Positions 1 through 63,008 of a stretch of 64,000 nt of DNA are shown here, in pieces (the first letter of the stretch is position 1; the number at the start of each line of letters is the position of its first letter). The notes below the pieces were generated by a model, which had not been told where the DNA came from, did not search any database, and saw nothing but the letters and a program-made list of their open reading frames with translations. The translations under genes were made by a program, and so were the position numbers. The DNA is from Eledone cirrhosa (Eukaryota): assembly GCA_964016885.1 (NCBI GenBank), contig OZ024750.1, forward strand, positions 25,730,001 to 25,794,000, written 5' to 3'.

Positions 1-2359
1 ACGTATTACAATTAGATTCTCGATAAAAGCAAGGGAAGTAAATCTACGCGTTTCATTCTTATTAGAAATCGTCAGGACTACATATCCAGTGCTTTTATCG
101 AGAATGACGCAGCTAGAGACTTATAGAATACTTAGCTGTGTACAGGAACTGGTTTGAAAGAGCGGTTGCCGGTCCGGCAGAAATTAGAAATTGGAATAAA
201 TGCTCTGAAATAGCGATATATATGTGAATATAGACATAGAATATTCGAAAATATTCTGTATGTTTATAATAAACATTTTGAAGACCTAATCGCTATAGAA
301 TAGAATACGTCACGTATTACAATTAGATTCTCGATAAAAGCAAGGGAAGTAAATCTACGCGTTTCATTCTTATTAGAAATCGTCAGGACTACATATCCAG
401 TGCTTTTATCGAGAATGACGCAGCTAGAGACTTATAGAATACTTAGCTGTGTACAGGAACTGGTTTGAAAGAGCGGTTGCCGGTCCGGCAGAAATTAGAA
501 ATTGGAATAAATGCTCTGAAATAGCGATATATATGTGAATATAGACATAGAATATTCGAAAATATTCTGTATGTTTATAATAAACATTTTGAAGACCTAA
601 TCGCTATAGAATAGAATACGTCACGTATTACAATTAGATTCTCGATAAAAGCAAGGGAAGTAAATCTACGCGTTTCATTCTTATTAGAAATCGTCAGGAC
701 TACATATCCAGTGCTTTTATCGAGAATGACGCAGCTAGAGACTTATAGAATACTTAGCTGTGTACAGGAACTGGTTTGAAAGAGCGGTTGCCGGTCCGGC
801 AGAAATTAGAAATTGGAATAAATGCTCTGAAATAGCGATATATATGTGAATATAGACATAGAATATTCGAAAATATTCTGTATGTTTATAATAAACATTT
901 TGAAGACCTAATCGCTATAGAATAGAATACGTCACGTATTACAATTAGATTCTCGATAAAAGCAAGGGAAGTAAATCTACGCGTTTCATTCTTATTAGAA
1001 ATCGTCAGGACTACATATCCAGTGCTTTTATCGAGAATGACGCAGCTAGAGACTTATAGAATACTTAGCTGTGTACAGGAACTGGTTTGAAAGAGCGGTT
1101 GCCGGTCCGGCAGAAATTAGAAATTGGAATAAATGCTCTGAAATAGCGATATATATGTGAATATAGACATAGAATATTCGAAAATATTCTGTATGTTTAT
1201 AATAAACATTTTGAAGACCTAATCGCTATAGAATAGAATACGTCACGTATTACAATTAGATTCTCGATAAAAGCAAGGGAAGTAAATCTACGCGTTTCAT
1301 TCTTATTAGAAATCGTCAGGACTACATATCCAGTGCTTTTATCGAGAATGACGCAGCTAGAGACTTATAGAATACTTAGCTGTGTACAGGAACTGGTTTG
1401 AAAGAGCGGTTGCCGGTCCGGCAGAAATTAGAAATTGGAATAAATGCTCTGAAATAGCGATATATATGTGAATATAGACATAGAATATTCGAAAATATTC
1501 TGTATGTTTATAATAAACATTTTGAAGACCTAATCGCTATAGAATAGAATACGTCACGTATTACAATTAGATTCTCGATAAAAGCAAGGGAAGTAAATCT
1601 ACGCGTTTCATTCTTATTAGAAATCGTCAGGACTACATATCCAGTGCTTTTATCGAGAATGACGCAGCTAGAGACTTATAGAATACTTAGCTGTGTACAG
1701 GAACTGGTTTGAAAGAGCGGTTGCCGGTCCGGCAGAAATTAGAAATTGGAATAAATGCTCTGAAATAGCGATATATATGTGAATATAGACATAGAATATT
1801 CGAAAATATTCTGTATGTTTATAATAAACATTTTGAAGACCTAATCGCTATAGAATAGAATACGTCACGTATTACAATTAGATTCTCGATAAAAGCAAGG
1901 GAAGTAAATCTACGCGTTTCATTCTTATTAGAAATCGTCAGGACTACATATCCAGTGCTTTTATCGAGAATGACGCAGCTAGAGACTTATAGAATACTTA
2001 GCTGTGTACAGGAACTGGTTTGAAAGAGCGGTTGCCGGTCCGGCAGAAATTAGAAATTGGAATAAATGCTCTGAAATAGCGATATATATGTGAATATAGA
2101 CATAGAATATTCGAAAATATTCTGTATGTTTATAATAAACATTTTGAAGACCTAATCGCTATAGAATAGAATACGTCACGTATTACAATTAGATTCTCGA
2201 TAAAAGCAAGGGAAGTAAATCTACGCGTTTCATTCTTATTAGAAATCGTCAGGACTACATATCCAGTGCTTTTATCGAGAATGACGCAGCTAGAGACTTA
2301 TAGAATACTTAGCTGTGTACAGGAACTGGTTTGAAAGAGCGGTTGCCGGTCCGGCAGAA
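1..2359 (-). repeat. Left arm of 311-bp HHR-bearing tandem array (7.6 units, cut by window edge)
   Basis: ACGTATTACAATTAG recurs at 1, 312, 623, 934, 1245, 1556, 1867 and 2178. No unit differences seen by eye. HHR on minus strand at 38-81 + n*311 (8 copies). Confidence 0.97.
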
Positions 2360-5300
2360 GGTCTTCAAAATGTTTATTATAAACATACAGAATATTTTCG
2401 AATATTCTATGTCTATATTCACATATATATCGCTATTTCAGAGCATTTATTCCAATTTCTAATTTCTGCCGGACCGGCAACCGCTCTTTCAAACCAGTTC
2501 CTGTACACAGCTAAGTATTCTATAAGTCTCTAGCTGCGTCATTCTCGATAAAAGCACTGGATATGTAGTCCTGACGATTTCTAATAAGAATGAAACGCGT
2601 AGATTTACTTCCCTTGCTTTTATCGAGAATCTAATTGTAATACGTGACGTATTCTATTCTATAGCGATTAGGTCTTCAAAATGTTTATTATAAACATACA
2701 GAATATTTTCGAATATTCTATGTCTATATTCACATATATATCGCTATTTCAGAGCATTTATTCCAATTTCTAATTTCTGCCGGACCGGCAACCGCTCTTT
2801 CAAACCAGTTCCTGTACACAGCTAAGTATTCTATAAGTCTCTAGCTGCGTCATTCTCGATAAAAGCACTGGATATGTAGTCCTGACGATTTCTAATAAGA
2901 ATGAAACGCGTAGATTTACTTCCCTTGCTTTTATCGAGAATCTAATTGTAATACGTGACGTATTCTATTCTATAGCGATTAGGTCTTCAAAATGTTTATT
3001 ATAAACATACAGAATATTTTCGAATATTCTATGTCTATATTCACATATATATCGCTATTTCAGAGCATTTATTCCAATTTCTAATTTCTGCCGGACCGGC
3101 AACCGCTCTTTCAAACCAGTTCCTGTACACAGCTAAGTATTCTATAAGTCTCTAGCTGCGTCATTCTCGATAAAAGCACTGGATATGTAGTCCTGACGAT
3201 TTCTAATAAGAATGAAACGCGTAGATTTACTTCCCTTGCTTTTATCGAGAATCTAATTGTAATACGTGACGTATTCTATTCTATAGCGATTAGGTCTTCA
3301 AAATGTTTATTATAAACATACAGAATATTTTCGAATATTCTATGTCTATATTCACATATATATCGCTATTTCAGAGCATTTATTCCAATTTCTAATTTCT
3401 GCCGGACCGGCAACCGCTCTTTCAAACCAGTTCCTGTACACAGCTAAGTATTCTATAAGTCTCTAGCTGCGTCATTCTCGATAAAAGCACTGGATATGTA
3501 GTCCTGACGATTTCTAATAAGAATGAAACGCGTAGATTTACTTCCCTTGCTTTTATCGAGAATCTAATTGTAATACGTGACGTATTCTATTCTATAGCGA
3601 TTAGGTCTTCAAAATGTTTATTATAAACATACAGAATATTTTCGAATATTCTATGTCTATATTCACATATATATCGCTATTTCAGAGCATTTATTCCAAT
3701 TTCTAATTTCTGCCGGACCGGCAACCGCTCTTTCAAACCAGTTCCTGTACACAGCTAAGTATTCTATAAGTCTCTAGCTGCGTCATTCTCGATAAAAGCA
3801 CTGGATATGTAGTCCTGACGATTTCTAATAAGAATGAAACGCGTAGATTTACTTCCCTTGCTTTTATCGAGAATCTAATTGTAATACGTGACGTATTCTA
3901 TTCTATAGCGATTAGGTCTTCAAAATGTTTATTATAAACATACAGAATATTTTCGAATATTCTATGTCTATATTCACATATATATCGCTATTTCAGAGCA
4001 TTTATTCCAATTTCTAATTTCTGCCGGACCGGCAACCGCTCTTTCAAACCAGTTCCTGTACACAGCTAAGTATTCTATAAGTCTCTAGCTGCGTCATTCT
4101 CGATAAAAGCACTGGATATGTAGTCCTGACGATTTCTAATAAGAATGAAACGCGTAGATTTACTTCCCTTGCTTTTATCGAGAATCTAATTGTAATACGT
4201 GACGTATTCTATTCTATAGCGATTAGGTCTTCAAAATGTTTATTATAAACATACAGAATATTTTCGAATATTCTATGTCTATATTCACATATATATCGCT
4301 ATTTCAGAGCATTTATTCCAATTTCTAATTTCTGCCGGACCGGCAACCGCTCTTTCAAACCAGTTCCTGTACACAGCTAAGTATTCTATAAGTCTCTAGC
4401 TGCGTCATTCTCGATAAAAGCACTGGATATGTAGTCCTGACGATTTCTAATAAGAATGAAACGCGTAGATTTACTTCCCTTGCTTTTATCGAGAATCTAA
4501 TTGTAATACGTGACGTATTCTATTCTATAGCGATTAGGTCTTCAAAATGTTTATTATAAACATACAGAATATTTTCGAATATTCTATGTCTATATTCACA
4601 TATATATCGCTATTTCAGAGCATTTATTCCAATTTCTAATTTCTGCCGGACCGGCAACCGCTCTTTCAAACCAGTTCCTGTACACAGCTAAGTATTCTAT
4701 AAGTCTCTAGCTGCGTCATTCTCGATAAAAGCACTGGATATGTAGTCCTGACGATTTCTAATAAGAATGAAACGCGTAGATTTACTTCCCTTGCTTTTAT
4801 CGAGAATCTAATTGTAATACGTGACGTATTCTATTCTATAGCGATTAGGTCTTCAAAATGTTTATTATAAACATACAGAATATTTTCGAATATTCTATGT
4901 CTATATTCACATATATATCGCTATTTCAGAGCATTTATTCCAATTTCTAATTTCTGCCGGACCGGCAACCGCTCTTTCAAACCAGTTCCTGTACACAGCT
5001 AAGTATTCTATAAGTCTCTAGCTGCGTCATTCTCGATAAAAGCACTGGATATGTAGTCCTGACGATTTCTAATAAGAATGAAACGCGTAGATTTACTTCC
5101 CTTGCTTTTATCGAGAATCTAATTGTAATACGTGACGTATTCTATTCTATAGCGATTAGGTCTTCAAAATGTTTATTATAAACATACAGAATATTTTCGA
5201 ATATTCTATGTCTATATTCACATATATATCGCTATTTCAGAGCATTTATTCCAATTTCTAATTTCTGCCGGACCGGCAACCGCTCTTTCAAACCAGTTCC

Positions 5301-5528
5301 TGTACACAGCTAAGTATTCTATAAGTCTCTAGCTGCGTCATTCTCGATAAAAGCACTGGATATGTAGTCCTGACGATTTCTAATAAGAATGAAACGCGTA
5401 GATTTACTTCCCTTGCTTTTATCGAGAATCTAATTGTAATACGTGACGTATTCTATTCTATAGCGATTAGGTCTTCAAAATGTTTATTATAAACATACAG
5501 AATATTTTCGAATATTCTATGTCTATAT
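2360..5528 (+). repeat. Right, inverted arm of the 311-bp array (10.2 units), ending in (TA)n
   Basis: GGTCTTCAAAATG at 2360, 2671, 2982 ... 5159, 5470. It is the reverse complement of the left-arm unit and merges into the TA tract at TGTCTATAT. Confidence 0.97.
2565..2608 (+). ncRNA. Type-I hammerhead ribozyme of the 311-bp unit (representative; repeats every 311 bp to 5364-5407)
   Basis: GTAGTC-CTGACGA-T TTCT AATA AGAA T-GAAA-CGCG-TA-GATTTAC. Core complete, helix III palindromic (CGCG), predicted cut after 2601. Enclosed by a perfect 16-bp inverted repeat at 2541-2556/2615-2630. Confidence 0.82.
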
Positions 5529-5626
5529 ATATATACATATATATACATATATATGTTTATATACATATATATATACATATATATACATATATATATATAT
5601 ATATGTTTATATACATATATATATAA

Positions 5627-5673
<47 letters not shown>

Positions 5674-6071
5674 TATATACATATATATATAAATATATAT
5701 ACATATATATATATATACATATATATATATATGTTTATATACATATATATATACATATATATACATATATATACTTATATATATATATGTTTATATACAC
5801 ATATATATATACATATATATACATATATATATATATATGTTTATATACACATATATATACATATATATACATATATAGATTTATATACATATATATATAC
5901 ATATATATACATATATATATATATATGTTTATATACACATATATATACATATATATACATATATAGATTTATATACATATATATATACATATATATACAT
6001 GTATATATATATACATATATATGTTTATATACATATATATATATATATATACATATATATATACACATATA

Positions 6072-6109
<38 letters not shown>

Positions 6110-6184
6110 CATATATATATACACATATATATATATATATATACATATATACATATATATACATATATATAGATATATATATAC

Positions 6185-6215
<31 letters not shown>

Positions 6216-6243
6216 CATATATATACATATATATATAAATATA
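5529..6243. repeat. Imperfect (TA)n/(TACA) microsatellite
   Basis: Direct reading. Similar tracts at 8311-9127, 10362-11200, 20876-21480, 35725-36378, 36803-37166, 37836-38270, 62163-62344 and others. Confidence 0.95.
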
Positions 6244-6283
6244 TGGTATGCATGGGCGACTGCTGGTTTTCCTTAAACTCGGA

Positions 6284-6451
6284 GGTTAAAAGAGTTCCAT
6301 GTATTTTATTATGCCCATTTCAAAAACAAATATCATCATGGGATGATATTTGCGTTCTCATCAGATATGATATTGCATTCTCCTCCCATGATGATATTTG
6401 TTTTTGAAATGCGCATAATAAAATACATGGAACTCTTTTAACCATCTTTTG
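6284..6451. mobile_element. Fold-back fragment of HHR family 'TGCGCA' (Penelope pLTR-like)
   Basis: GGTTAAAAGAGTTCCATGTATTTT ... AAAATACATGGAACTCTTTTAACC inverted arms. Same sequence family as 39888-40170, 55596-56010 and 62584-63008. HHR core on minus strand at about 6304-6367. Confidence 0.75.
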
Positions 6452-6564
6452 ATTTTATATTATTTATACTCGTCCTATAAACTGTTGAGTGCTACTTATC
6501 TGATATTTGCATTGCTTTATTGTGCTACAATAAAACTCACCTCCTACATATATATATATATACG

Positions 6565-7894: not shown

Positions 7895-7928
<34 letters not shown>

Positions 7929-7982
7929 TGAGATTCTACAGGACTAGAACTGTTTCATTCTTTAGAAATCATCAGGAATCTC

Positions 7983-8037
7983 TGAGATTCCTGATGATTT
8001 CTAAAGAATGAAACAGTTCTAGCCCTGTAGAATCTCA
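7983..8037 (+). ncRNA. Type-I hammerhead ribozyme; mirror copy on minus strand at about 7929-7982
   Basis: TGAGATTC-CTGATGA-TTTCTAAAGAAT-GAAA-CAG TTCTAGCC CTG-TA-GAATCTCA: 8-bp helix I, intact core, proper helix III. Region 7926-8042 is a near-perfect palindrome. Confidence 0.88.
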
Positions 8038-8303
8038 TCTATATTAAAACTTTTATACTCTGCTATGTATTGAGTACCTTACTTACTGTGGTTACCTCCG
8101 ATTCAACCCGGATTAACGTATATATATATATATATATATATAGTATTAATTATACTATTTATGGTTATGTAAATACAAAAACCTTTTGCAGTTATATATA
8201 TTTTTATACAAACCCTAAATAGTGGTAGGCAGAAGAATCCAAACCTCGGTTTGGAGGAAACAGTTGTAAGCATAAAAATGTTTTGAACAGTTCTTTGATT
8301 CTT

Positions 8304-11459: not shown

Positions 11460-11511
11460 GACTTCCCTGAAGATTTCATACGAATGAAACAGTTCTAGAA
11501 ATGTAGAAGTC
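11460..11511 (+). ncRNA. Degenerate hammerhead related to the 7983 motif
   Basis: GACTTC(C)-CTGAAGA-TTTCATACGAAT-GAAA-CAGTTCTAGAAATG-TA-GAAGTC; one extra C in helix I and a weakened helix III. Confidence 0.65.
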
Positions 11512-11537
11512 ATTTCTACATGTAAAATAAGTATGCC

Positions 11538-17689: not shown

Positions 17690-18455
17690 TGGATTACTGT
17701 TAGTAACTTAGGGCGTTTCTTAGACATTTCAAATCTGGCGGAGCCAATCCCCTCTCCTGATCGGAAGGCAGCCAATTTCTTCGAGAGAAGGAGAGAGAGA
17801 GAGAGAGAGAGAGAAGAAGAAGAAGTAAGAAAGAGATATAGAGAGGAAGAATCACCCCCAGTACTTAACTGGTACTCTATCGACCACAAAAGAATGACCC
17901 CCCACCCACCTACAGGTATGAAACGCACCCAATTTCTTTCAGAGCAGGCAAAAGAAAGTAGGAGAGAAGAAGTAAGAAAGAGATATTGAGTAGAAGAATC
18001 AACCCCAGTACTTAACTGGTACTCTATCGACCACAACAGAATGACCCCCCCCACCCATCTACAGGTATGAAACGCAGCCAATTTCTTTCAGAGCAGAAAG
18101 TGAGAAAGAAGAAGTAAGAAAGAGATATTGAGTAGAAGAATCAACCCCAGTACTTAACTGGTACTCTATTGACCACCACAGAATGACCCCCCACCCATCT
18201 ACAGGTATGAAACGTAGCCAATTTCTTTCAGATCAGGCAAAAGAAAGTGAGAGAGAAGAAGTAAGAAAGAGATATTGAGTAGAAGAATCAACCCCAGTAC
18301 TTAACTGGTACTCTATTTGTCGACCACGAAAGAATGAAAGGCAAAGTTGACCTTAGCGGCCTTTGAACTCACAAAACACAGAGATTCGTCGGAAGGAATG
18401 CCACTAAGCTAAGCATTCTATCCAATATTCTAATGACTGCCAATTCACCGCCAAT
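17690..18455 (-). mobile_element. Older SINE (family A2) with an internal about 120-bp segment amplified 4 times
   Basis: AGAAGAATCAACCCCAGTACTTAACTGGTACTCTAT near 17845, 17992, 18134 and 18280. SINE body at 18325-18455. Relatives with the same 3' extension at 18780-19000 (-), 49910-50165 (+), 51045-51145 (+) and 54318-54752 (+). Confidence 0.7.
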
Positions 18456-22099: not shown

Positions 22100-22589
22100 G
22101 ACACCAGAAGTCTCCACTGCTACAGGTGGCCAACTCTGTGCCGATGGTGGTGAGTAGGGAGGTAGTCGTAGGCCAAAGACACCAGAAGTCTCCACTGCTA
22201 CAGGTGGCCAACTCTGTGCCGATGGTGGTGAATAAGAAGGTGGTCGTAGGCCAAGGACACCAGAAGTCTCCACTGCTACAGGTAGCAAACTCTGTGCCGA
22301 TGGTGGTGAATAGGAAGGTGGTCGTAGGCCAAGGACACCAGAAGTCTCCACTGCTACAGGTAGCAAACTCTGTGCCGATGGTGGTGAGTAGGAAGGTGGT
22401 CGTAGGCCAAGGACACCAGAAGTCTCCACTGCTACAGGTGGCCAACTCTGTGCCGATGGTGGTGAGTAGGAAGGTGGTCGTAGGCCAAGGACACCAGAAG
22501 ACTCCACTGCTACAGGTAGCCAACTCTGTGCCGATGGTGGTGAGTAGGGAGGTGGTCGTAGGCCAACGACACCAGAAGTTTCCACTGGT
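22100..22589. repeat. GC-rich 78-bp minisatellite, about 6.3 units
   Basis: ACACCAGAAG at 22101, 22179, 22257, 22335, 22413, 22491 and about 22569. Confidence 0.95.
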
Positions 22590-26153: not shown

Positions 26154-26772
26154 GTATGTATGTATGTATGTATGTATGTTACTGAATGTGTGTGTGTATG
26201 TATGTATGTCACAGCGTGTGTGTGTGTATATATGCATATATGTCACTGTATGTATAGATCTAGTTATGTATACATGGTCGGGAACGTATGTGTGTCCCTC
26301 TATGTATATGTGTGTGTATGCATGTATGTACGTATGTCACTGTGTGTAGATCTAATTTTGATTGAGTATCGATACATAGATCTTTTATAAAATTCAAACT
26401 TCTGCAATGTTTTACATCGTTCTACAATTTCATTAACGATTTGTGATTATAATGTCTTAATTAGTTGTATCTTTTCTAATATTGTAGAGTATAGCTTTTC
26501 AAAACTGTTTCTGAGCCAATTATTTACATAACCCCGTCCCTCAATAATTACAGGTATAAATCTAAAGTTATAGTTCAGATGTTCTATCTATTTTTAATAA
26601 ATGTCCATGTCTAATGGACAAATGATTTAGACAAGTGTGTCCACTGCCTTTTCCTGGTCCCAGTTATTTCTGTCTGGACTTCCATGGTGTATGTCAAGAT
26701 AGCGACTCTACCATTTCAACAAGTGTTAACGGATCTTCACTATGTGCATATGCATGCATGTATGTATGTATG

Positions 26773-27135
26773 CATGTGGAGAAAGCGCATAAAAGGCTGC
26801 TGCAAAACGTTTGAGAAATGTCGTTTAGAATATAAACAACTGAAGCGTCAGCTCCGGAACGGATGTGCTCACAGTCTCGATGAAGTCATCAGTAGTTGGA
26901 CATGCAAGTTCTGTCAGCGTGTACTCCTCTCAAAGGCTGGTTATGTTAATCACCTGAAGTCACTTGAAAGGATAACCACCTGTAACACCACTCAACAAAG
27001 ACCTCTCTTCTGTCACCTGTGTCGTAAACCATGCAGATCTAAAGTTAGCATACGAAGTCATGGACGCAGATGGAATGATAACGAAGAATCAATAAGAGAC
27101 GGCAATCGTCTGGGAAGACGCTGCAATCCTCATGT
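26773..27135 (+). mobile_element. RTE-type LINE 3' remnant with two zinc-finger motifs
   Basis: WRKRIKGCCKTFEKCRLE...WTCKFCQRVLLSKAGYVNHLKS...FCHLCRKPCRSKVSIRSH; flanked by (ATGT)n. Confidence 0.65.
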
Positions 27136-29610: not shown

Positions 29611-29931
29611 CTCGGTTGTACATATTTCACTGAAGACTATCAATTATGATAGTCTGAGCTCTTCAGATGGTATAGCCTAAAATAAACATAGAAAGTTCCT
29701 AAGAAACCTTTAAAATTTGGAAAAATCTAATAATTTCCCCGAAGAAACAACACCACGTATTCGGCCGGCTTTCTGTATCATAAAAACAAAATCTTCTTTC
29801 GGTGAAATTATTAGATTTTTCCAAATTTTCAAAGTTTATTAGGAACTTTTGAATGTTTATTTTAGGCTTTGCCGTCTGAAGAGTTCATGCTATCATAATT
29901 GATAGTCCTCAGTGAAATATGTATAACGGAG
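29611..29931. mobile_element. Diverged about 130-bp inverted repeat carrying an HHR on each arm (plus copy 29872-29929)
   Basis: CCGT-CTGAAGA-GTTCATGCTATC ATAATT GATAGTCCTCAGT-GAAA-TATGTA-TA-ACGG; arms at about 29611-29745 and 29795-29931. Confidence 0.72.
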
Positions 29932-32637: not shown

Positions 32638-33574
32638 AATATAAATTAGCGAGAATCGTTTTCAGCTCAGGAATTAACGAAAATCAACGTCCGATATGTG
32701 TGGCAAGCGCTCGATGAATCATATGAATCAGAGCTACAACATACGTTAAGGGCCAAACACACTGAGATGATGGTTAAACATATCATCCGCACAGCCAAAA
32801 CAAAACGACCAAGTAATTCGGGTCAAACAATAAAAATATATGTGTTGATACTTTCCCGGACCCTGGACTGATGGTAAAATCCAGTATTGGTTTCTGCGAC
32901 TCCAAATCAGGTACTGTCCGCCTACATAAAGAATGTTGGGTTTCTGGTGAGATGATGAACAAGGAAGTCGTGTTATCAACGGGTTTTGCTCCAAGATGCT
33001 ATAGATAGTGTGGCTATTACTGACCCCTCGTGGGATTCAGCAAGGGAGGTAACACCTCTATTAAGCGAATGATTCAGTTGTGTATTATTGCGAGAATGCA
33101 AAATATCACAAATCGAATAAAGCTCTCGACAGAATAGTTAAATATAACAGAGCTATTCAACAGTCAATATAAGTAACTGAAAAAATCAATAAAAAAATCA
33201 ATAAAATTAACTGCTCAATAGCTAGACTCTGGAGATTAATACAAATATAAATTAGCGAAAATCGCTTTTAGCTCAGGAATATATATCAAAATAACAGATA
33301 TAAATATATATAACAGATATAAATATATAAATATATATCAAAATAACAGATTAAAGTGTAAGCAAAGAATCGCTGCTTTCAACCTTAACCGGGTCTTCTG
33401 AAACTGTTATTTTAATAAATATTTGCTCTACGGTTCTTATATATTTGATATATACATTTATCCTTATCGAGCCGTCTTTGAATATTAGTCTCCACATTGC
33501 ACTGGGTAATTGCTGGCCTTGTGCCTATAGTAGAAACAATTATTATTATTATTACTATATATATATATAAATAT

Positions 33575-34192
33575 ATACAATATTAAATAAATGGAAACTA
33601 TATTTATAAAACCATATTTATTTCATTATATATATTTCAGGGATATCATATTAACAATATGCTATGCCTTCCTCAGACAAAATACAATATAAACAGTTTT
33701 ATAGATAAATAGATTCGACATACCGTAACATAAAACTGTTTATATTGTATTTTGTCTGAGGAAGGCATAGCATATTGTTAATATGATATCCCTGAAATAT
33801 ATATAATGAAATAAATATGGTTTTATAAATATAGTTTCCATTTATTTAATATTGTAAATATACTCCAAATATTTGTCGAGTGCTTTTATATCAGTTATAA
33901 ATATTTACTAGTTGTAACCCAACAATTTAAATATAACTTTCCATATAAATATATATATATATATGCAAAAGTTCTATTTAAAGTTGTTGGGATACAACAA
34001 GTAAATATTTTTATAACTGATATAAAGCACTCGACAAAGTAATGGTTGTATTTTAAAGGGTACGTCAAACCTATTTGTAAAACTGTTATATATTGTATTT
34101 TGTCTGATGAAGGCATACCATAATTTAATGTGGTATCCCTGAAATATGTATAATGAAATAAATATGGTTTTATAAATATAGTTTCCATTTAT
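33575..34192 (+). mobile_element. pLTR-like element: inverted copy + about 350-bp partial tandem, three HHRs (family 'TATATA')
   Basis: 33575-33703 is inverted against 33730-33857, and 33730-33845 recurs at about 34078-34192. Cores CTGAGGA and CTGATGA ... GAAA-TATATA/TATGTA-TA-ATGAAAT. Confidence 0.8.
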
Positions 34193-34199
34193 TAATATC

Positions 34200-34263
<64 letters not shown>

Positions 34264-34272
34264 GTATATATG

Positions 34273-34563
<291 letters not shown>

Positions 34564-39437: not shown

Positions 39438-39480
39438 ACGATGTACTAGTTTCAAGCTTATTAGCTATCGTCAGCATCGT
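39438..39480 (-). ncRNA. Minimal type-I hammerhead inside a doubly inverted element (39222-39841)
   Basis: Minus strand: ACGATG-CTGACGA-T AGCT AATA AGCT T-GAAA-CTAG-TA-CATCGT; perfect 6-bp helix I and palindromic helix III. Confidence 0.88.
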
Positions 39481-39890: not shown

Positions 39891-40170
39891 GGAGGTGAGT
39901 TTTATTGTAGTACAATAAAGCAATGCAGATATCGGATAAGAAGCACTCTACAGTTTGTAGGACTGGAGTATATATAATATATAAGAACAAAAGATGATAT
40001 GTTGATTTAAAACTGCACTATCCACAAGTGTTTTTTAACCTTCATATCATGTCTTCCTATTTTATCTGATGAAAACACAAATATTATTGCATGATGATAT
40101 TTGTTTTTGAAATGCTCATAATAAAATACATGGAACTCTTTTAACCATCTTTTGTTCTTATATATTATAT
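39888..40170 (+). mobile_element. Family 'TGCGCA' element with inversion; HHR at 40060-40126
   Basis: TTTTAT-CTGATGA-AAACACAAATATT...GATATTTGTTTTT-GAAA-TGCTCA-TA-ATAAAA. Confidence 0.8.
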
Positions 40171-40331
40171 ATATCCTATATGATGTTGACCTCAATATTT
40201 AATTACGAATATTCACTATTTAAGACAAAGAAAGAAGCAAACAAATAAAAAATATCTTGGGTGTTTGATAGAGAACTTCTCTCTAAAATTGACATTGTGG
40301 TACTTATTACCTGGCACTATTACCCTGTAAT

Positions 40332-42345
40332 AAGTCAAGACTGTGGTACTTATTAACAGCTAGGGTAACAGTGTATGTTAACAAGTCAAGACTGTGGTAC
40401 TTATTATCAGCTAGGGTAACAGTGTATGTTAACAAGTCAAGACTGTGGTACTTATTATCAGCTAGGGTAACAGTGTATGTTAACAAGTCAAGACTGTGGT
40501 ACTTATTAACAACTAGGGTAACAGTGTATGTTAACAAGTCAAGACTGTGGTACTTATTAACAACTAGGGTAACAGTGTATGTTAACAAGTCAAGACTGTG
40601 GTACTTATTAACAACTAGGGTAACAGTGTATGTTAACAAGTCAAGACTGTGGTACTTATTAACAACTAGGGTAACAGTGTATGTTAACAAGTCAAGACTG
40701 TGGTACTTATTAACAACTAGGGTAACAGTGTATGTTAACAAGTTAAGACTGTGGTACTTATTAACAACTAGGGTAACAGTGTATGTTAACAAGTCAAGAC
40801 TGTGGTACTTATTAACAACTAGGGTAACAGTGTATGTTAACAAGTCAAGACTGTGGTACTTATTAACAACTAGGGTAACAGTGTATGTTAACAAGTCAAG
40901 ACTGTGGTACTTATTAACAACTAGGGTAACAGTGTATGTTAACAAGTTAAGACTGTGGTACTTATTAACAACTAGGGTAACAGTGTATGTTAACAAGTCA
41001 AGACTGTGGTACTTATTAACAACTAGGGTAACAGTGTATGTTAACAAGTCAAGACTGTGGTACTTATTAACAACTAGGGTAACAGTGTATGTTAACAAGT
41101 CAAGACTGTGGTACTTATACAGCTGTATGTTAACAAGTCAAGACTGTGGTACTTATTAACAACTAGGGTAACAGTGTATGTTAACAAGTCAAGACTGTGG
41201 TACTTATTAACAGCTAGGGTAACAGTGTATGTTTAACAAGTCAAGACTGTGGTTACTTATTAACAACTAGGGTAACAGTGTATGTTAACAAGTCAAGACT
41301 GTGGTACTTATTAACAACTAGGGTAACAGTGTAATGTTAACAAGTCAAGACTGTGGTACTTATTAACAACTAGGGTAACAGTGTATGTTAACAAGTCAAG
41401 ACTGTGGTACTTATTAACAGCTAGGGTAACAGTGTATGTTAACAAGTCAAGACTGTGGTACTTATTAACAACTAGGGTAACAGTGTATGTTAACAAGTCC
41501 AAGGACTGTGGTACTTATTAACAACTAGGGTAACAGTGTATGTTAAACAAGTCAAGACTGTGGTACTTATTAACAACTAGGGTAACAGTGTATGTTAACA
41601 AGTCAAGACTGTGGTACTTATTAACAGCTAGGGTAACAGTGTATGTTAACAAGTCAAGGACTGTTGGTACTTATTAACAACTAGGGTAACAGTGTATGTT
41701 AACAAGTCAAGACTGTGGTTACTTATTAACAGCTAGGGTAACAGTGTATGTTAACAAGTCAAGACTGTGGTACTTATTAACAACTAGGGTAACAGTGTAT
41801 GTTAACAAGTCAAGACTGTGGTACTTATTAACAGCTAGGGTAACAGTGTATGTTAACAAGTCAAGACTGTGGTACTTATTAACAGCTAGGGTAACAGTGT
41901 ATGTTTAACAAGTCAAGACTGTGGTAACTTATTAACAACTAGGGTAACAGTGTATGTTAACAAGTTAAGACTGTGGTACTTATTAACAACTAGGGTAACA
42001 GTGTATGTTAACAAGTCAAGACTGTGGTACTTATTAACAGCTAGGGTAACAGTGTATGTTAAACAAGTCAAGACTGTGGTACTTATTAACAGCTAGGGTA
42101 ACAGTGTATGTTAACAAGTCAAGACTGTGGTACTTATTAACAGCTAGGGTAACAGTGTATGTTAACAAGTCAAGACTGTGGTACTTATTAACAGCTAGGG
42201 TAACAGTGTATGTTAACAAGTCAAGACTGTGGTACTTATTAACAACTAGGGTAACAGTGTATGTTAACAAGTCAAGACTGTGGTACTTATTAACAACTAG
42301 GGTAACAGTGTATGTTAACAAGTCAAGGCTGTGGTACTTATTATC
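40332..42345. repeat. 51-bp minisatellite, about 39 units
   Basis: AAGTCAAGACTGTGGTACTTATTAACA(A/G)CTAGGGTAACAGTGTATGTTAAC. Scattered 1-nt insertions after about 41100 look like read errors. Confidence 0.97.
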
Positions 42346-42902
42346 AAACACTATAATGCACTGGGTAATTGCTGGCCTTGTGCCAAAAGTAGAAACAATT
42401 ATTACCCTGTAATTAGACAAGTTCGCAAAGAAAAGGATAGGAAAGGCCAGTTTTCTAGATCGGGCTAAGGAATCTGTTTCTATTAGTCTTTTTATTGCTG
42501 ATAAATACATGTTGGTCATAGCTCATGAACTTGAAAAATAGACACAAAAAAATCACATGTATATTCACAAAGGGTAAAACTTTCTGTATAACATATAAAT
42601 ACAGTAAACCACTACATATATCTTGGTAGTGTAAATTAGTTGTAATGCTCAACAGAATGTGTATTAGACCGTGCCAAAAAAAAAGCATATGTATGACAGC
42701 ACATACCTACATATGTAATATATTGTATGAAGGTCACTTTTCTGGTTTATAATGCTTTCAACTGCAAACGGCATGATATATTGAAAACATCGAGAACAAT
42801 TTGTTTTGTTCTACATGATGCAAAAACTATTTATTTGTTTGAAATGTCACTGGCCTGGAGATTGTAAAGAGAAAATGTAGCTACAATCAAATTTTCTTTT
42901 TA

Positions 42903-47969: not shown

Positions 47970-48237
47970 TACATTTACCCAAACCCTAACACCTTCTCCG
48001 TTTGACATTTACCCTAATCCTAATCTAACCTCTAACTCTAACACCTTTTCTGTTTGACATTTACCCTAATCCTAATCCATACCTCTAACTCTAACCCTTT
48101 CACTGTTTGACATTTACCCTAATCCTAATCTAACCTCTAACTCTAACACCTTTTCTGTTTGACATTTACCCTAATCCTAATCCATACCTCTAACTCTAAC
48201 CCTTTCACTGTTTGACATTTACCCTAATCCTAATCCT
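47970..48237. repeat. About 52-bp minisatellite with CCCTAA/TCCTAA/CTCTAA hexamers, about 5 units
   Basis: TGTTTGACATTTACCCTAATCCTAATC... with two alternating unit variants. Confidence 0.9.
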
Positions 48238-55188: not shown

Positions 55189-55595
55189 GAAAAAACAAAT
55201 TGTCTGGAACAATTTTCCTGTGGTAATTGCAGTCCTAATATTTAGTAATGGCAGAATTCTGCTGTCCAAACATGTCAGCTGTTAATACAATGGAAACGGA
55301 GTTTGTTAGACTTGTTTACTCTTCAAATTATCATTTAAAAATATACAAGTGTATCTCTAGAGGAGATCATTTGTACTAAACGATGACTGAGGAAATTGTT
55401 AGTATACACACACACACACACACATAGAGATACATACATGCATATACATACGCCTTCCCACTCTCACAGAATCACATACACTCGCATATATGTAGGTAGC
55501 TGTATATCTATATACATAGATATAGATAGATAAACACACACACTCACACACACACACACACACATTATATATATATATTTATATATAGATATAAT

Positions 55596-56010
55596 GTAGG
55601 AGGTGAGTTTTATTGTAGTACAATAAAGCAATGCAGATATCGGATAAGAAGCACTCTACAGTTTGTAGGACTGGAGTATACATAATATATAAGAACAAAA
55701 GATGGTTAAAAGAGTTCCATGTATTTTATTACGCGCATTTCAAAAACAAATATCATCATGCAATAATATTTGTGTTTTCATCAGATAAAACAGGAGGACA
55801 TGATATGAAGGTTAAAAAACACTTGTGGATAGTGCAGTTTTAAATCAACATATAACTGCACTATCCACAAGTGTTTTTTAACCTTCATATCATGTCCTCC
55901 TGTTTTATCTGATGAAAACACAAATATTATTGCATGATGATATTTGTTTTTGAAATGCGCATAATAAAATACATGGAACTCTTTTAACCATCTTTTGTTC
56001 TTATATATTA
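55596..56010. mobile_element. Family 'TGCGCA' fold-back with two intact HHRs (minus about 55724-55790, plus 55903-55969)
   Basis: TTTTAT-CTGATGA-long helix II-GAAA-TGCGCA-TA-ATAAAA; arms nearly identical. Confidence 0.88.
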
Positions 56011-56164
56011 TATATAGATATAGATATACACACATAGGAAAAGAGTCAGGACCTCGACGGCTGAGCTTCGGTTGTTTCGACAGCTATCTCAAACAAAACA
56101 GGCAGCACGATGTAGTTGTTCAGTGCGTTCAGAGAGCTCAGCCATCGGGGTCCTGACTCTTTTC

Positions 56165-56191
<27 letters not shown>

Positions 56192-56197
<6 letters not shown>

Positions 56198-56620
56198 ATT
56201 AAATAAATGGAAAACTATATTTATAAAACCATATTTATTTCATTATATATATTTCGGGGATATCATATTAACAATATGCTATGCCTTCATCAGACAAAAT
56301 ACAATATAAACAGTTTTATAGATAAATATATTCGACATATTAGACTGCTAGAGTAAACCTCTTCAAATGAAGTTGATGTTTATTACGGTATGTCGAATAT
56401 ATTTATCTATAAAACTGTTTATATTGTATTTTGTCTGATGAAGGCATAGCATATTGTTAATATGATATCCCCGAAATATATATAATGAAATAAATATGGT
56501 TTTATAAATATAGTTTTCCATTTATTTAATATTGTAAATATACTCCAAATATTTGTCGAGTGCTTTTATATCAGTTATAAATATTTACTAGTTGTAACCC
56601 AACAATTTTAAATATAACTT

Positions 56621-56621
<1 letters not shown>
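56192..56621. mobile_element. Family 'TATATA' fold-back with two HHRs (plus 56428-56491, minus about 56236-56299)
   Basis: ATTTTGT-CTGATGA-AGGCATAG CATATT GTT AATATG ATATCCCC-GAAA-TATATA-TA-ATGAAAT; arms at about 56192-56339 and 56389-56536. Confidence 0.82.
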
Positions 56622-56682
<61 letters not shown>

Positions 56683-59432: not shown

Positions 59433-59498
<66 letters not shown>

Positions 59499-60566
59499 TG
59501 GTGGCTGCCAACTCGTTTTCGAGTACGGCCACTACTTTATATCCATGTAGGAGAACTCCTACCGATGCGCTGAACGAGTGTGACTTTTTAGTCCAGCCAG
59601 CGACTTGAAAACTCTGGTACCAACACTACACTTGTGACAATCATTGACACATAGTGCTGGGCCCATGTGACGACAAGTGTAGAGAGATCTCCAGATATAA
59701 AGCAATGCCTGTGCCATGAAGCTTTTATAGTGAGCAAAGGCACTGCACAAAGCCAGTCCCACTCTCTTAACCAAGATGATATTTACCAAAAAGAAGAACA
59801 AGTCAACATCATTGGATACCATCAGGGTTGCAGGTGTTATATCAGAGTTTTCCTTCTCCTAGAATTCTGCCTTGACAAAGGCTAAGGGGTCATCTCTCCC
59901 GGAATACATACATACAAACATGCATACATATATACAAACATGCATGCGTACATACATGGTGGCTGCCAACTCGTTTTCGAGTACGGCCACTACTTTATAT
60001 CCATGTAAGAGAACCCCTACCGATACGCTGAATGAGTGTGACGTTTTAGTCCAGCCAGCGACTTGAAAACTCTGGTACAAACACTACACTTGTGACAATT
60101 ATTAACACATAGTGCTGGGCTCATGTTACCATATGACGACAAGTGTAGAGAGATCTCCAGATATAAAGCAATGCCTGCGCCGTGAAGCTTTTATAGTGAG
60201 CAAAGGCACTGCACAAAGCCAGTCCCACTCTCTTAACCAAGATGATATTTACCAAAAAGAAGAAAAAGTCAACATCATTGGATACCATCAGGGTTGCAGG
60301 TGTTATATCAGAGTTTTCCTTCTCCTAGAATTCTGCCTTGACAAAAGCTAAGGGGTCATCTCTCCTGGTGATTTTGGATGGCCATTGACTCTTAAGAGCT
60401 CCTTTGGCCTTTGACAGGTTTTTTTTGTTGTCCTGCAGGATGTCCAAAGTCACCCTCCTCACCAAGAAACCTTGGTGGGGTTGCCAGTTTAGTCGCCAAC
60501 GACCCGACGATGAGAGAGGTTGTACTGGGATACATGTTACCAGTAGCACCAACTGGTGACCTGACA
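59499..60566 (-). mobile_element. Two tandem copies of the bipartite RTE-derived element (59955-60566 full; 59499-59903 5'-truncated)
   Basis: Reverse complement of 25546-26153; copies separated by the (ATGT)n-like tail. Confidence 0.87.
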
Positions 60567-60841
60567 TAAATATATATATATATATATACATATATATTAG
60601 TCTTTTACTAATTTCAATCATTAGGATGTGGCCATACTGGGACACCGACTTTATTTACTCGATCAACCTCAGTAATAACTTTTTCTTTCAAATGTAGAAC
60701 CTATTGCGTGTGTATATATATCACAAAGCGCGTGGTGAAATACCAGGTGGACAATAACCCACCATATTACTCGATACCTGGGATAGTAGAGTAGGTAATA
60801 TGAAAAGTTTCAGGCTCGTTTCGACAGCTAGATCCGAACTG

Positions 60842-61700
60842 TTTAGAGAGGGAAGATCAACCACCAGTCACATCCTGATGCTGAGGAGGATATTAGAGCG
60901 AGCTAGAGCAAAGTGCCTTCCTGCTGTCATGGTTTTCATTGACTTTAGGAAGGCCTTTGATTCTGTGGACCGTCACTGCTTGATGAAGATCTTACAGGCT
61001 TATGGAATCCCCAAGAAGATGGTGGACCTGATATCACTGCTCTACTCCAACACCAAAGCCCAAATCATTACACCTGATGGGATGACGGAGATACTGGCTG
61101 GAGTGCTCCAGGGAGGTACATTGGCTCCCTACCTTTTTATCATCGCAGTGGACATGCGCCTTGCGCTGGAGAAACTCCAGGACTCTGGCTAGAATTGGTT
61201 GAGGACTTCCTGTATCTGGGAGTAAAGATTGGAAACGCAGAGGATGATGTAGTTGAGAGGAAGAGCAAAGCCTGGGTGGCGTGTCACAGTTTGAGATCGG
61301 TGTGGAAGTCGGACCTGAAGATCCATCTCTTCGTATGTGCTGCTGTACGGGTATGAGACTTGGACACTGACCAAGAAACTCACTCAGATGGTGGATGGGT
61401 GCTACACGAGAATTGTGAGGATGGCTCTGAACATTAATTAGTATACACTGAGGTTGAAGAACTCAGAGCTGTACGGGAGCCTCCCAAAATTCAGCTCGAA
61501 AGTAGCACAGAGGAGACTGAGGTGAGCTGGACATGCTCAACGACATCCAGAGTTGACACTGCACTCAGTGCTCCTGTGGGAGCCCCTGCACGGACACACT
61601 AGAAAAGGGAGACCAAGGTTAACGTATGTTGATACCTAAGGACTGATACCGGTCTCTTTGTGACGCAGAACATGACAGCGATGATGAGGGACTTGTCCAT
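60842..61700 (+). pseudogene. RTE-clade LINE reverse transcriptase remnant
   Basis: FREGRSTTSHI...FIDFRKAFDSV...GVLQGGTLAPYLF; the YADD region is missing. Then EDFLYLG, VLLYGYETWTLTK, DGCYTR, RRLR*AGH and GRPRLTYVD, with stops and frameshifts. Confidence 0.92.
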
Positions 61701-62583: not shown

Positions 62584-63003
62584 TGTAGGAGGTGAGTTTT
62601 ATTGTAGCAACAATAAAGCAATGCAAATATCGGATAAGTAGCACTCTACAGTTTGTAGGACTGGAGTATAAATATATAAGATCAAAAGATGGTTAAAAGA
62701 GTTCCAAGTATTTTATTATGCGCATTTCAAAAACAAGTATCATCATGGGATGATATCTGCGTTCTCATCAGATAAAATAAGGAGACATGATATGAAGCTT
62801 AAAAAACACTTGTGAATAGTGAAGTTTTAAATTAACATATCAGATATGTTAATTTAAAACTTCAATATTCACAAGTGTTTTTTAAGCTTCATATCATGTA
62901 TCCCTATTTTATCTGATGAAAACGCAGATATCATCCCATGATGATACTTGTTTTTGAAATGCGCATAATAAAATACTTGGAACTCTTTTAACCATCTTTT
63001 GAT

Positions 63004-63008
<5 letters not shown>
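62584..63008. mobile_element. Family 'TGCGCA' fold-back with two HHRs (minus about 62711-62777, plus 62907-62973)
   Basis: Same architecture as 55596-56010; flanked by (TA)n. Confidence 0.87.

What the first reader, a model, noticed from the sequence alone, without database searches (positions are those of the whole stretch)
1..5528. Ribozyme satellite: at least 18 hammerheads in an identical 311-bp tandem array (candidate cephalopod retrozyme)
Seen: what looks like plain satellite has one complete HHR core per unit (CUGACGA / GAAA-CGCG-UA) closed by a 16-bp perfect inverted repeat. Each unit has further hairpins (AGAATATT-TTCG-AATATTCT at 2389-2408; TGCCGG-A-CCGGCA at 2467-2479) and no ORF. 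Known: tandem type-I HHR repeats of a few hundred bp (non-LTR retrozymes, newt and schistosome satellites, Penelope pLTRs) self-cleave into monomers that can circularise, and palindromic helix III allows dimeric HHRs between adjacent units. Inference: a transcript would be cut into 311-nt monomers or circles, and the identical multimer may come from recent rolling-circle reverse transcription by a Penelope-like RT. Caveat: the first helix II pair is U-U rather than G-C.
Basis: partly seen in the sequence, partly recalled or inferred. Interest (0 to 1): 0.9.

Follow-up and report, generated by a model that had tools for sequence, protein, structure and literature searches.

The report
Back-to-back ribozyme arrays from RNA circles
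A 311-base non-coding repeat with a hammerhead-ribozyme motif sits at an estimated 1,600 places in this animal genome, in most sampled cases as two multi-copy arms set back to back inside a TA microsatellite, the pattern predicted if a Penelope-type retrotransposon enzyme copies a small RNA, likely a circle, from both sides of its target cut.

Summary
The 311-bp unit and 18 hammerhead cores are real, but this is not one tandem array. It is a palindrome: a 19-unit minus arm and a 10-unit plus arm joined 5'-to-5' at 2359, both ending in (TA)n. This is the family's rule. Of 116 loci, 105 are two-armed. Their outer ends fall at two fixed sites about 35 nt apart, one per arm, matching the Penelope-like element (PLE) 'inverted copy plus tail'. 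Inner junctions are scattered and carry microhomology. Each locus usually has one haplotype across both arms (46 of 47 in an independent sample). Fixed variants spare the catalytic core and keep helix pairs (7 of 8, against 2 of 17 for minority variants). A young RT+GIY-YIG PLE family shares both end motifs and the spacing, so it is the likely helper. Best reading: a non-LTR retrozyme copied by double target-primed rolling-circle reverse transcription (0.6). An uncut multimeric template is the main rival (0.27): two mosaic loci fit it. No RNA data were available, Rfam misses the motif, and 'cephalopod' was not shown. Earlier AI notes of this scan report similar PLE-type insertions on other DNA.

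The parts
1..2359 (-). Arm B: last 7.6 of 18.99 units, ribozyme-sense on the minus strand, 8 cores in the window. It continues upstream to G000:C10:25726453, where it ends at phase 171 (End B) in a TA tract. Phase 1 = window 2602.
2359..2359 (.). 5'-to-5' inversion junction with 1-nt microhomology (phase 174 of arm B joined to phase 69 of arm A)
2359..5528 (+). Arm A: 10.19 identical units, 10 cores, ending at phase 128 (End A)
2571..2601 (+). Type I hammerhead core, first plus copy (repeats every 311 nt to 5370-5400, and on the minus strand from 2252-2222 to 75-45). CUGACGA; helix II of 4 bp closed by U-U (2578-2591); GAAA; palindromic helix III ACGCGU; predicted cleavage after 2601.
   Evidence: variant pattern
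2565..2608 (+). Helix I inner stem, 2565-2570 with 2602-2608, one bulged U (absent in the commoner 310-nt haplotypes)
2541..2630 (+). 16-bp clamp (2541-2556 with 2615-2630) closing the ribozyme; four double changes against the older relative F2
2729..2774 (+). Within each unit: End A zone (phase 128-140, 2729-2741), the 35-nt tail (2733-2767) and End B zone (phase 166-173, 2767-2774); inferred reverse-transcription start sites
2389..2408 (+). 8-bp hairpin with a UUCG loop, part of a longer stem just 5' of End A
5529..6244 (.). (TA)n-type microsatellite target. The same ATATATAC-type repeat flanks the far end of arm B.

Best explanation
This is one of an estimated 1,600 young insertions of a non-coding 310-311-nt hammerhead-bearing retroelement (a non-LTR retrozyme), built as two multi-unit arms joined back to back in a TA microsatellite and likely made when a Penelope-like RT/endonuclease copies a monomeric RNA circle from both nicks of its target. 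Shown: the unit, the two-armed anatomy, the fixed outer ends, scattered microhomologous inner junctions, locus-wide haplotypes, and variation that spares the ribozyme. Inferred steps: (1) an arm is transcribed as a multimer; (2) neighbouring hammerheads pair through the palindromic helix III and cut it into monomers, which a host ligase would circularise; (3) a GIY-YIG/RT protein, likely of the L118 family, binds the End A-End B region and nicks (TA)n on both strands; (4) one 3'-OH primes at End B and the other at End A, about 35 nt upstream, and each runs round the circle for a random number of turns; (5) the two cDNA ends anneal through a few bases, or are patched, and are filled in; (6) some long arms later grow by DNA-level block duplication.
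For: Anatomy. 52 of 56 loci in sample 1 and 53 of 60 in sample 2 are two-armed. Among 40 loci chosen by End B, all 36 far ends in view are End A. Among 60 chosen by End A, 48 of 49 far ends in view lie at 166-173 and one at 160; none is End A. In a list not chosen by ends, 11 of 16 loci are divergent, 0 convergent and 5 show one strand. An inverted 5'-truncated copy and a 30-40-bp tail at one end are the published PLE signature (PMC8557442), and the tail lies between two RT start sites in vitro (PMC11167929). Junction overlap averages 2.8 nt (37 of 49 simple junctions) against 0.76 for random pairs, P=3e-8, and 3.1 nt in sample 2 (39 of 53). Neither arm bounds the other: A is longer than B in 27 of 51 and 22 of 49 loci. 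Single template. Differences per unit are 0.29 within loci and 1.6-1.7 between loci, with 18 haplotypes in 33 loci. Arms agree in 46 of 47 loci. Of 34 fixed variant types, 19 are private to one locus, including 247C in every unit of both arms here. All 1,089 passes across the cleavage site lack locus-private indels or added bases. Only 2 of 208 inner ends lie within 10 nt of that site, against about 13 expected. Selection on the ribozyme. No fixed variant falls in 16 core or helix III positions, against 6 minority events. At paired positions 7 of 8 fixed variants keep or make a pair, against 2 of 17 minority variants, Fisher P=5e-4. Position N7 carries three alleles. There are 6 double changes in 16 pairs against relative F2. 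Helper. The L118 family has RT and GIY-YIG, a 35-nt tail and the same last 7 nt at End B. The anchored 49-nt alignment beats 2000 of 2000 shuffles, while four other PLE families do not. It has 690 exact End B junctions, and 12 of 52 listed matches read stop-free across RT and endonuclease.
Against: No transcript, cleavage or circle was observed. Two of 105 loci carry minority variants mirrored in exact register from both outer ends: L247, and L289 with two units of one haplotype and then another on both arms. A pure monomer circle cannot give that without a coordinated template swap, and the L289 junction is unique in the assembly, so no donor locus explains it. L078 is mosaic in one arm only. 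Long arms L061, L065, L066 and L244 show repeated minority variants, so some length arises at the DNA level. In the one PLE tested in vitro, ribozyme cleavage was not needed and uncut RNA was the main template (PMC11167929). Helix II has a predicted pairing probability of only about 0.1 in the circle and helix III does not form in a monomer. Rfam does not detect the motif. Eight of nine Xenopus retrozyme dimers did not cleave in vitro. The helper match was picked after seeing it, and an unanchored local alignment is not significant (42 of 500 shuffles). The minus strand folds at least as well as the plus strand (z -4.8 against -3.5), so folding energy does not identify the RNA strand. The covariation count rests on one divergence between two families.
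Confidence: 0.6

Rival explanations
1. Same PLE double priming, but the template is a long uncut multimeric transcript of an existing arm. Both RT starts occur in one unit and read inward in register, and locus-wide haplotypes come from short copies later expanded by unequal exchange.
For: Mirrored variants in L247 and L289; repeated minority variants in long arms; uncut RNA was the main substrate of the anole PLE (PMC11167929); exact continuity at the cleavage site also fits; weak predicted helices II and III.
Against: Only 7 of 74 testable minority variants (2 loci) are mirrored. Variants present in several but not all units were noticed in about 7 of 115 loci, while 34 variant types are fixed locus-wide, often across both short arms. 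If cleavage were dispensable, selection on the core and helices needs another cause. The L1-type expectation (recalled) that arm B stops at End A is not met: 4 of 51, 4.3 expected.
Confidence: 0.27
2. Cleaved linear monomers, held as nicked circles by helix I and the 16-bp clamp, are copied repeatedly by end-to-end template jumping. Occasional jumps to another monomer make the mosaics.
For: Explains the single haplotype, the selection on the ribozyme and the two-haplotype loci; the clamp has pairing probability 1.0.
Against: No indel or untemplated base in 1,089 passes over the site, and inner ends are depleted there, not enriched (2 of 208).
Confidence: 0.07
3. DNA-only origin: satellite turnover, extrachromosomal DNA circles or fold-back repair, with the hammerhead as a passenger.
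For: Block duplications in long arms; palindromes can arise by fold-back (recalled).
Against: Does not explain two fixed ends 35 nt apart shared with a PLE, strict (TA)n targeting, or plus-strand G-U-tolerant variation. Fold-back would bound one arm by the other, which is not seen.
Confidence: 0.04
4. The inversion and the identity of units are assembly or chimeric-read artefacts.
For: Identical repeats are prone to collapse; no raw reads across 2359 were examined.
Against: 105 loci have distinct junctions (one repeated phase pair). The same layout occurs in the older, 95-97% identical family F2 and in coding PLEs. Haplotypes differ by locus. End A and End B counts are compatible (1,240 exact End A; 795 forward End B).
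Confidence: 0.02

Closest known systems
Non-LTR retrozymes of animals (Cervera & de la Pena 2020, PMC7229834; Li, Clavereau & Pollet 2026, 10.64898/2026.07.22.740005)
   Same: 150-450-bp low-GC tandem units with one type I hammerhead each, no ORF, no LTR/PBS/PPT, proposed PLE helper and proposed multi-unit cDNA from a circle; U-U at the base of helix II as in axolotl HHR_Amex2.
   Different: Those texts describe head-to-tail arrays; a word search found no 'inverted', 'head-to-head', 'opposite' or 'orientation' in their main text apart from one reference title (supplements unseen). Here insertions are two-armed with fixed ends. The unit is not homologous to a pLTR along its length; it shares only the end motifs with the candidate helper. 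Circles are not demonstrated here.
EN+ Penelope-like elements of Neptune/Nematis type (Craig et al. 2021, PMC8557442; Frangieh et al. 2024, PMC11167929; Cervera & de la Pena 2014, PMC4209133)
   Same: Inverted 5'-truncated copy at the 5' end, a 30-40-bp tail at one end, microsatellite or AT-rich target, two RT starts bracketing the tail, palindromic dimer-type hammerhead.
   Different: No ORF; both arms are concatemers of up to about 20 or more units; the ribozyme has a long helix I and clamp rather than the minimal form.
Non-autonomous Chlamys PLEs such as MRC1 (PMC8557442, passage)
   Same: Non-coding PLE dependants giving multicopy head-to-tail insertions, with similarity to the helper at the 3' end.
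   Different: That clade lacks canonical hammerheads; two-armed concatemers were not mentioned in the passage read.
L1 twin priming (recalled, not read here)
   Same: Both target nicks prime cDNA, giving a 5'-to-5' inversion with microhomology.
   Different: In L1 the second priming site is variable and the arms are non-overlapping parts of one linear RNA. Here both sites are fixed, both arms repeat the same sequence, and arm B does not stop at End A.

Membership tests
Type I hammerhead ribozyme | Core CUGANGA / GAAA / UH with helices I-III in type I order | tested here: met
   Sequence; core never altered by a fixed variant in 115 loci
Type I hammerhead ribozyme | G10.1-C11.1 pair closing helix II | tested here: not met
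   U-U here, A-U in 15 of 115 loci; U-U precedent that cleaves: axolotl HHR_Amex2
Type I hammerhead ribozyme | Match to an Rfam hammerhead model | tested here: not met
   No hammerhead family at E<=1 or E<=10
Type I hammerhead ribozyme | Helices supported by variation | tested here: met
   7 of 8 fixed against 2 of 17 minority variants keep pairs; 6 of 16 pairs with double changes against F2
Type I hammerhead ribozyme | Self-cleavage | not testable with these tools
   Needs in vitro transcription
Non-LTR retrozyme | Tandem 150-450-bp units, one hammerhead per unit, GC below 50%, no ORF | tested here: met
Non-LTR retrozyme | Dispersed multi-locus family | tested here: met
   13,916 cores; 1,240 End A and 795 forward End B junctions
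Non-LTR retrozyme | Expressed as linear and circular monomer RNA | not testable with these tools
   No run on record as RNA was available
Non-autonomous PLE-mobilised element | Inverted 5'-truncated copy adjoining the 5' end | tested here: met
   105 of 116 loci
Non-autonomous PLE-mobilised element | 30-40-bp tail at one end only | tested here: met
   End A mode 131, End B mode 166; 36 of 36 and 49 of 49 far ends of the other kind
Non-autonomous PLE-mobilised element | Microsatellite or AT-rich target | tested here: met
   TA runs beyond every outer end in view; one end per locus was selected that way in samples of 40 and 60
Non-autonomous PLE-mobilised element | 3' similarity to an autonomous PLE in the same genome | tested here: inconclusive
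   Anchored alignment to the L118 family 0 of 2000 shuffles; local alignment 42 of 500; no extended homology among 50 GIY-YIG loci
Autonomous PLE pLTR | Attached RT + GIY-YIG ORF | tested here: not met
   Arms abut TA tracts directly; PLE fragments lay in the flanks of only 3 of 57 fetched stretches
Neptune/Nematis-type PLE (candidate helper L118) | [quoted passage not shown] | tested here: met
   Translation, Pfam RVT_1, GIY-YIG hit at this place, motif as described in PMC8557442. No tree was built, so the clade is not fixed.

The most novel reading that the evidence does not exclude
Each locus is a frozen single event in which a dimeric PLE enzyme ran two rolling-circle reverse transcriptions at once on one ribozyme-made RNA circle, from two start sites 35 nt apart. 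That would make these palindromes direct genomic proof that circular RNA is a retrotransposition template in animals, and would explain the PLE inverted copy and tail in one mechanism. Mosaic loci would record circles being swapped mid-synthesis.
Probability: 0.4. Interest if true: 0.85.

Novelty: new variant of a known kind. Interest (0 to 1): 0.68.

Why it matters
How animal retrozymes get back into DNA is proposed but unshown: PMC7229834 and PMC7761336 name PLEs as candidates, and the 2026 preprint argues from co-occurrence and pLTR homology. How PLEs make inverted copies and tails is also stated as open (PMC8557442). This family links the two through its junctions, in about 1,600 young, nearly mutation-free events. 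It also names a 310-nt template, two start sites, a (TA)n target and a candidate helper with stop-free copies, which are the reagents for a direct in vitro test. The variant pattern is evidence that the hammerhead is needed for spread, which in vitro work on an autonomous PLE did not find.

Tried and rejected
Rfam scans found only low-scoring miRNA-type hairpin matches. RNA evidence: no RNA holder was listed among 6 runs. Four runs of unrecorded kind were laid as contigs. Three gave a single 340-nt contig that closes on itself, which tandem DNA and a circle would both give. One gave 541 contigs with loose TA ends at phases 140 and 171, but it may be the assembly's own sample. None of this counts for or against expression. 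Inverted-repeat listing on the rest of the window was swamped by microsatellites. Helper search by BLAST of the unit against 50 GIY-YIG loci found only a nested copy of relative F2. A third-family pattern returned F1/F2 variants and older subfamilies, with no ORF seen attached. A-to-I editing as the source of recurrent A>G changes: fixed types are A>G 10 against T>C 7, no clear strand excess, so not claimed. Fold-back synthesis, L1-type linear twin priming and run-off at the cleavage site were tested and not supported. A donor for the mosaic L289 junction was not found. Host taxon: the named homologues of one PLE protein come from bivalve-symbiont assemblies, a hint of mollusc at most; a 3.0-Gb, TA-rich genome fits octopus only by recall. 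Target-site duplications cannot be read inside TA tracts. The 272-nt insert in L066 was not traced. The supplement of PMC7229834 could not be read and bioRxiv supplements are closed; either could show inverted arrays or cephalopod examples.
Full report
OBSERVATION. Tandem Repeats Finder splits 1-5528 into two perfect 311-bp arrays, 1-2359 and 2359-5528, and they are reverse complements of one unit. Ten hammerhead cores lie on the plus strand and eight on the minus strand. With the upstream neighbour, the minus arm is 18.99 units and the plus arm 10.19, joined 5'-to-5' through one shared base; both outer ends run into TA microsatellite, and the locus holds 29 cores. Rfam finds no hammerhead. 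Phases below count from window 2602, the base after the predicted cut.

RIBOZYME. The sequence shows a type I core, a 6-bp bulged helix I extended by a 16-bp clamp, a 4-bp helix II closed by U-U, and a palindromic helix III. In the predicted circle the clamp pairs with probability 1.0, helix I with 0.4-0.7, helix II with about 0.1 and helix III not at all, while two palindromes form a duplex of -9.5 kcal/mol. This is the dimer-type design described for metazoan hammerheads (PMC4209133), and a U-U closure occurs in a cleaving axolotl retrozyme (PMC7229834). Natural variation supports function. In 115 loci, 34 substitution types are fixed within a locus; none hits the 16 core and helix III positions, whereas 6 minority events do. 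At paired positions 7 of 8 fixed types keep or create a pair against 2 of 17 minority types (P=5e-4; two alignment-artefact types at the T-run and two mosaic alleles were left out of the minority count). An older relative of about 330 nt, F2, differs by double changes at 6 of 16 tested pairs; this is one divergence, not six independent lineages.

FAMILY. The genome (3.0 Gb) holds 13,916 exact cores of the U-U type, 1,240 exact End A junctions and 795 forward-strand End B junctions (the reverse count there is inflated by overlapping matches). I estimate about 1,600 loci by doubling the forward count. I examined 116: 16 best hits of the unit, the first 40 of 44 listed End B sites on contig 1 and 60 further End A sites. 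Two arms were seen in 52 of 56 and 53 of 60. The other 11 are eight single arms, two arms running out of the stretch and one gap. Every two-armed locus with both ends in view has one End A (126-140, mode 131) and one End B (166-173, mode 166; one at 160). The script printed one locus (C11) as A/A because of a substitution next to the end; one search shows it ending at 166. In the core list, which was not chosen by ends, 11 of 16 loci are divergent, none convergent. Inner ends are spread around the unit, carry more overlap than random pairs (2.8 against 0.76 nt; BLAST-derived, two 16-nt cases run through hairpins), and 12 of 49 and 14 of 53 have inserts.

LINK TO PLEs. An inverted truncated copy and a 30-40-bp tail at one end are the PLE signature (PMC8557442), and the anole PLE cuts and extends both strands and starts at two sites that bracket the tail (PMC11167929). 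Coding PLEs in this genome show the same layout. One family, represented by L118 (G000:C1:83811000-83819500; 1096-codon open frame, RT, CX4CXXC motif, GIY-YIG), has a 35-nt tail and ends in the same 7 nt as End B. Over the 49 nt ending at End B it aligns better than all 2000 shuffles, while four other families do not; the unanchored test gives 42 of 500, and the family was chosen after seeing the match. It is young: 14 of 29 top copies are identical over 256 nt, there are 690 exact ends, and several copies read stop-free across RT and endonuclease. I put it at about 0.6 as the helper, and PLE-type insertion in general at about 0.9.

TEMPLATE. Units differ by 0.29 within loci and 1.6-1.7 between loci; 378 of 426 equal their locus's commonest unit. 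Arms share the commonest unit in 31 of 35 loci in sample 1, where three exceptions are singleton noise in short arms and one is mosaic, and agree in 46 of 47 in sample 2. Private variants fill whole loci, for example 217G and 293T in every unit of both arms of L262. This means a one-unit bottleneck followed by amplification at or near each insertion, as the published rolling-circle model predicts (PMC7229834; PMC4209133). The cut site is crossed 1,089 times without a stray indel and inner ends avoid it (2 of 208), which argues against jumping between linear monomers. Against a pure circle: L247 and L289 carry minority variants in exact register from both outer ends (7 of 74 testable variants, 2 of 105 loci), L289's junction is unique, L078 is mosaic in one arm, and four long arms show block-like repeats of minority variants. 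The mirrored loci do show that both arms read the same template from the same unit. They fit an uncut multimer, or a swap of circles by both enzymes together.

LITERATURE. Read: 10.64898/2026.07.22.740005, parts 1-3 of 5 plus a word search; PMC7229834, parts 2-4 of 6 plus a word search; PMC11167929, parts 1-2 of 4; PMC4209133, parts 1-2 of 4; passages of PMC8557442, PMC7761336, PMC9977147 (nothing used) and PMC6962438 (235 Rfam hammerhead hits in giant squid). Searches listed no paper whose title or abstract start describes two-armed retrozyme arrays or a cephalopod retrozyme; the library lacks most subscription papers, Repbase was not searched, and supplements were unseen. L1 twin priming is recalled. 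Three unchecked notes of this scan describe PLE-type or microsatellite-primed non-coding arrays in other genomes; none exists for this genome or sequence. My reading was recorded before I saw them.

VERDICT. A real, young non-LTR retrozyme family whose insertions carry the full PLE junction signature on two concatemeric arms: a new variant of a known kind. Double-primed rolling-circle copying 0.6, uncut multimer 0.27, nicked monomer 0.07, DNA-only 0.04, artefact 0.02. Interest 0.68.

Noticed in passing
window 6245-6547, 55587-56040, 62585-63006, 40000-40200: Copies of another short non-coding family with a hammerhead-like core (long helix II, helix I of about 8 bp). Most show the same layout: short inverted arm, longer arm, TA flanks; the two ends differ by about 100 nt.
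   Followed up: partly
window 33571-34310, 56180-56627: A third family of back-to-back CUGANGA...GAAA elements between TA tracts.
   Followed up: partly
window 7927-8150, 11467-11520, 29620-29930, 39444-39474: Further hammerhead-like motifs, two of them in inverted pairs; those at 7991 and 11467 share the U-U-closed helix II start with the 311-nt unit, but no helix I was evident.
   Followed up: partly
L138-L197: F2 and older subfamilies: roughly 330-nt relatives of the unit with homologous End A and End B and mostly 1-2 units per arm; 3,005 first-look candidates.
   Followed up: partly
L066:1664-1935 (oriented copy; G000:C1 about 45281600): A 272-nt GC-rich foreign insert sits between the two arms, possibly a captured template.
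   Followed up: no
L042, L059, L071, L078, L080, L083, L245, L247, L254 and others: A>G at phases 277, 260 and 21, all in helices, recurs on several haplotype backgrounds; recombination between templates or RNA editing could explain it.
   Followed up: partly
L118-L137: At least six PLE families with C-terminal GIY-YIG end in TA tracts; several show tails of about 35-45 nt and minimal hammerhead-like motifs with U-U closure or a U3-A8 core.
   Followed up: partly
window 40328-42347: Near-perfect 51-bp minisatellite, about 40 copies.
   Followed up: no
window 22100-22587: 78-bp repeat, 6.3 copies, open on the minus strand as a Pro/Ser-rich 26-residue repeat.
   Followed up: no
window 60758-61189 and 26615-27100: Frames that look, by recall, like LINE reverse-transcriptase and C-terminal zinc-finger fragments.
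   Followed up: no
window 17818-18316, 47982-48236, 59494-60365: Other tandem repeats of 147, 52-53 and 466 bp; the window also holds 200 N bases.
   Followed up: no
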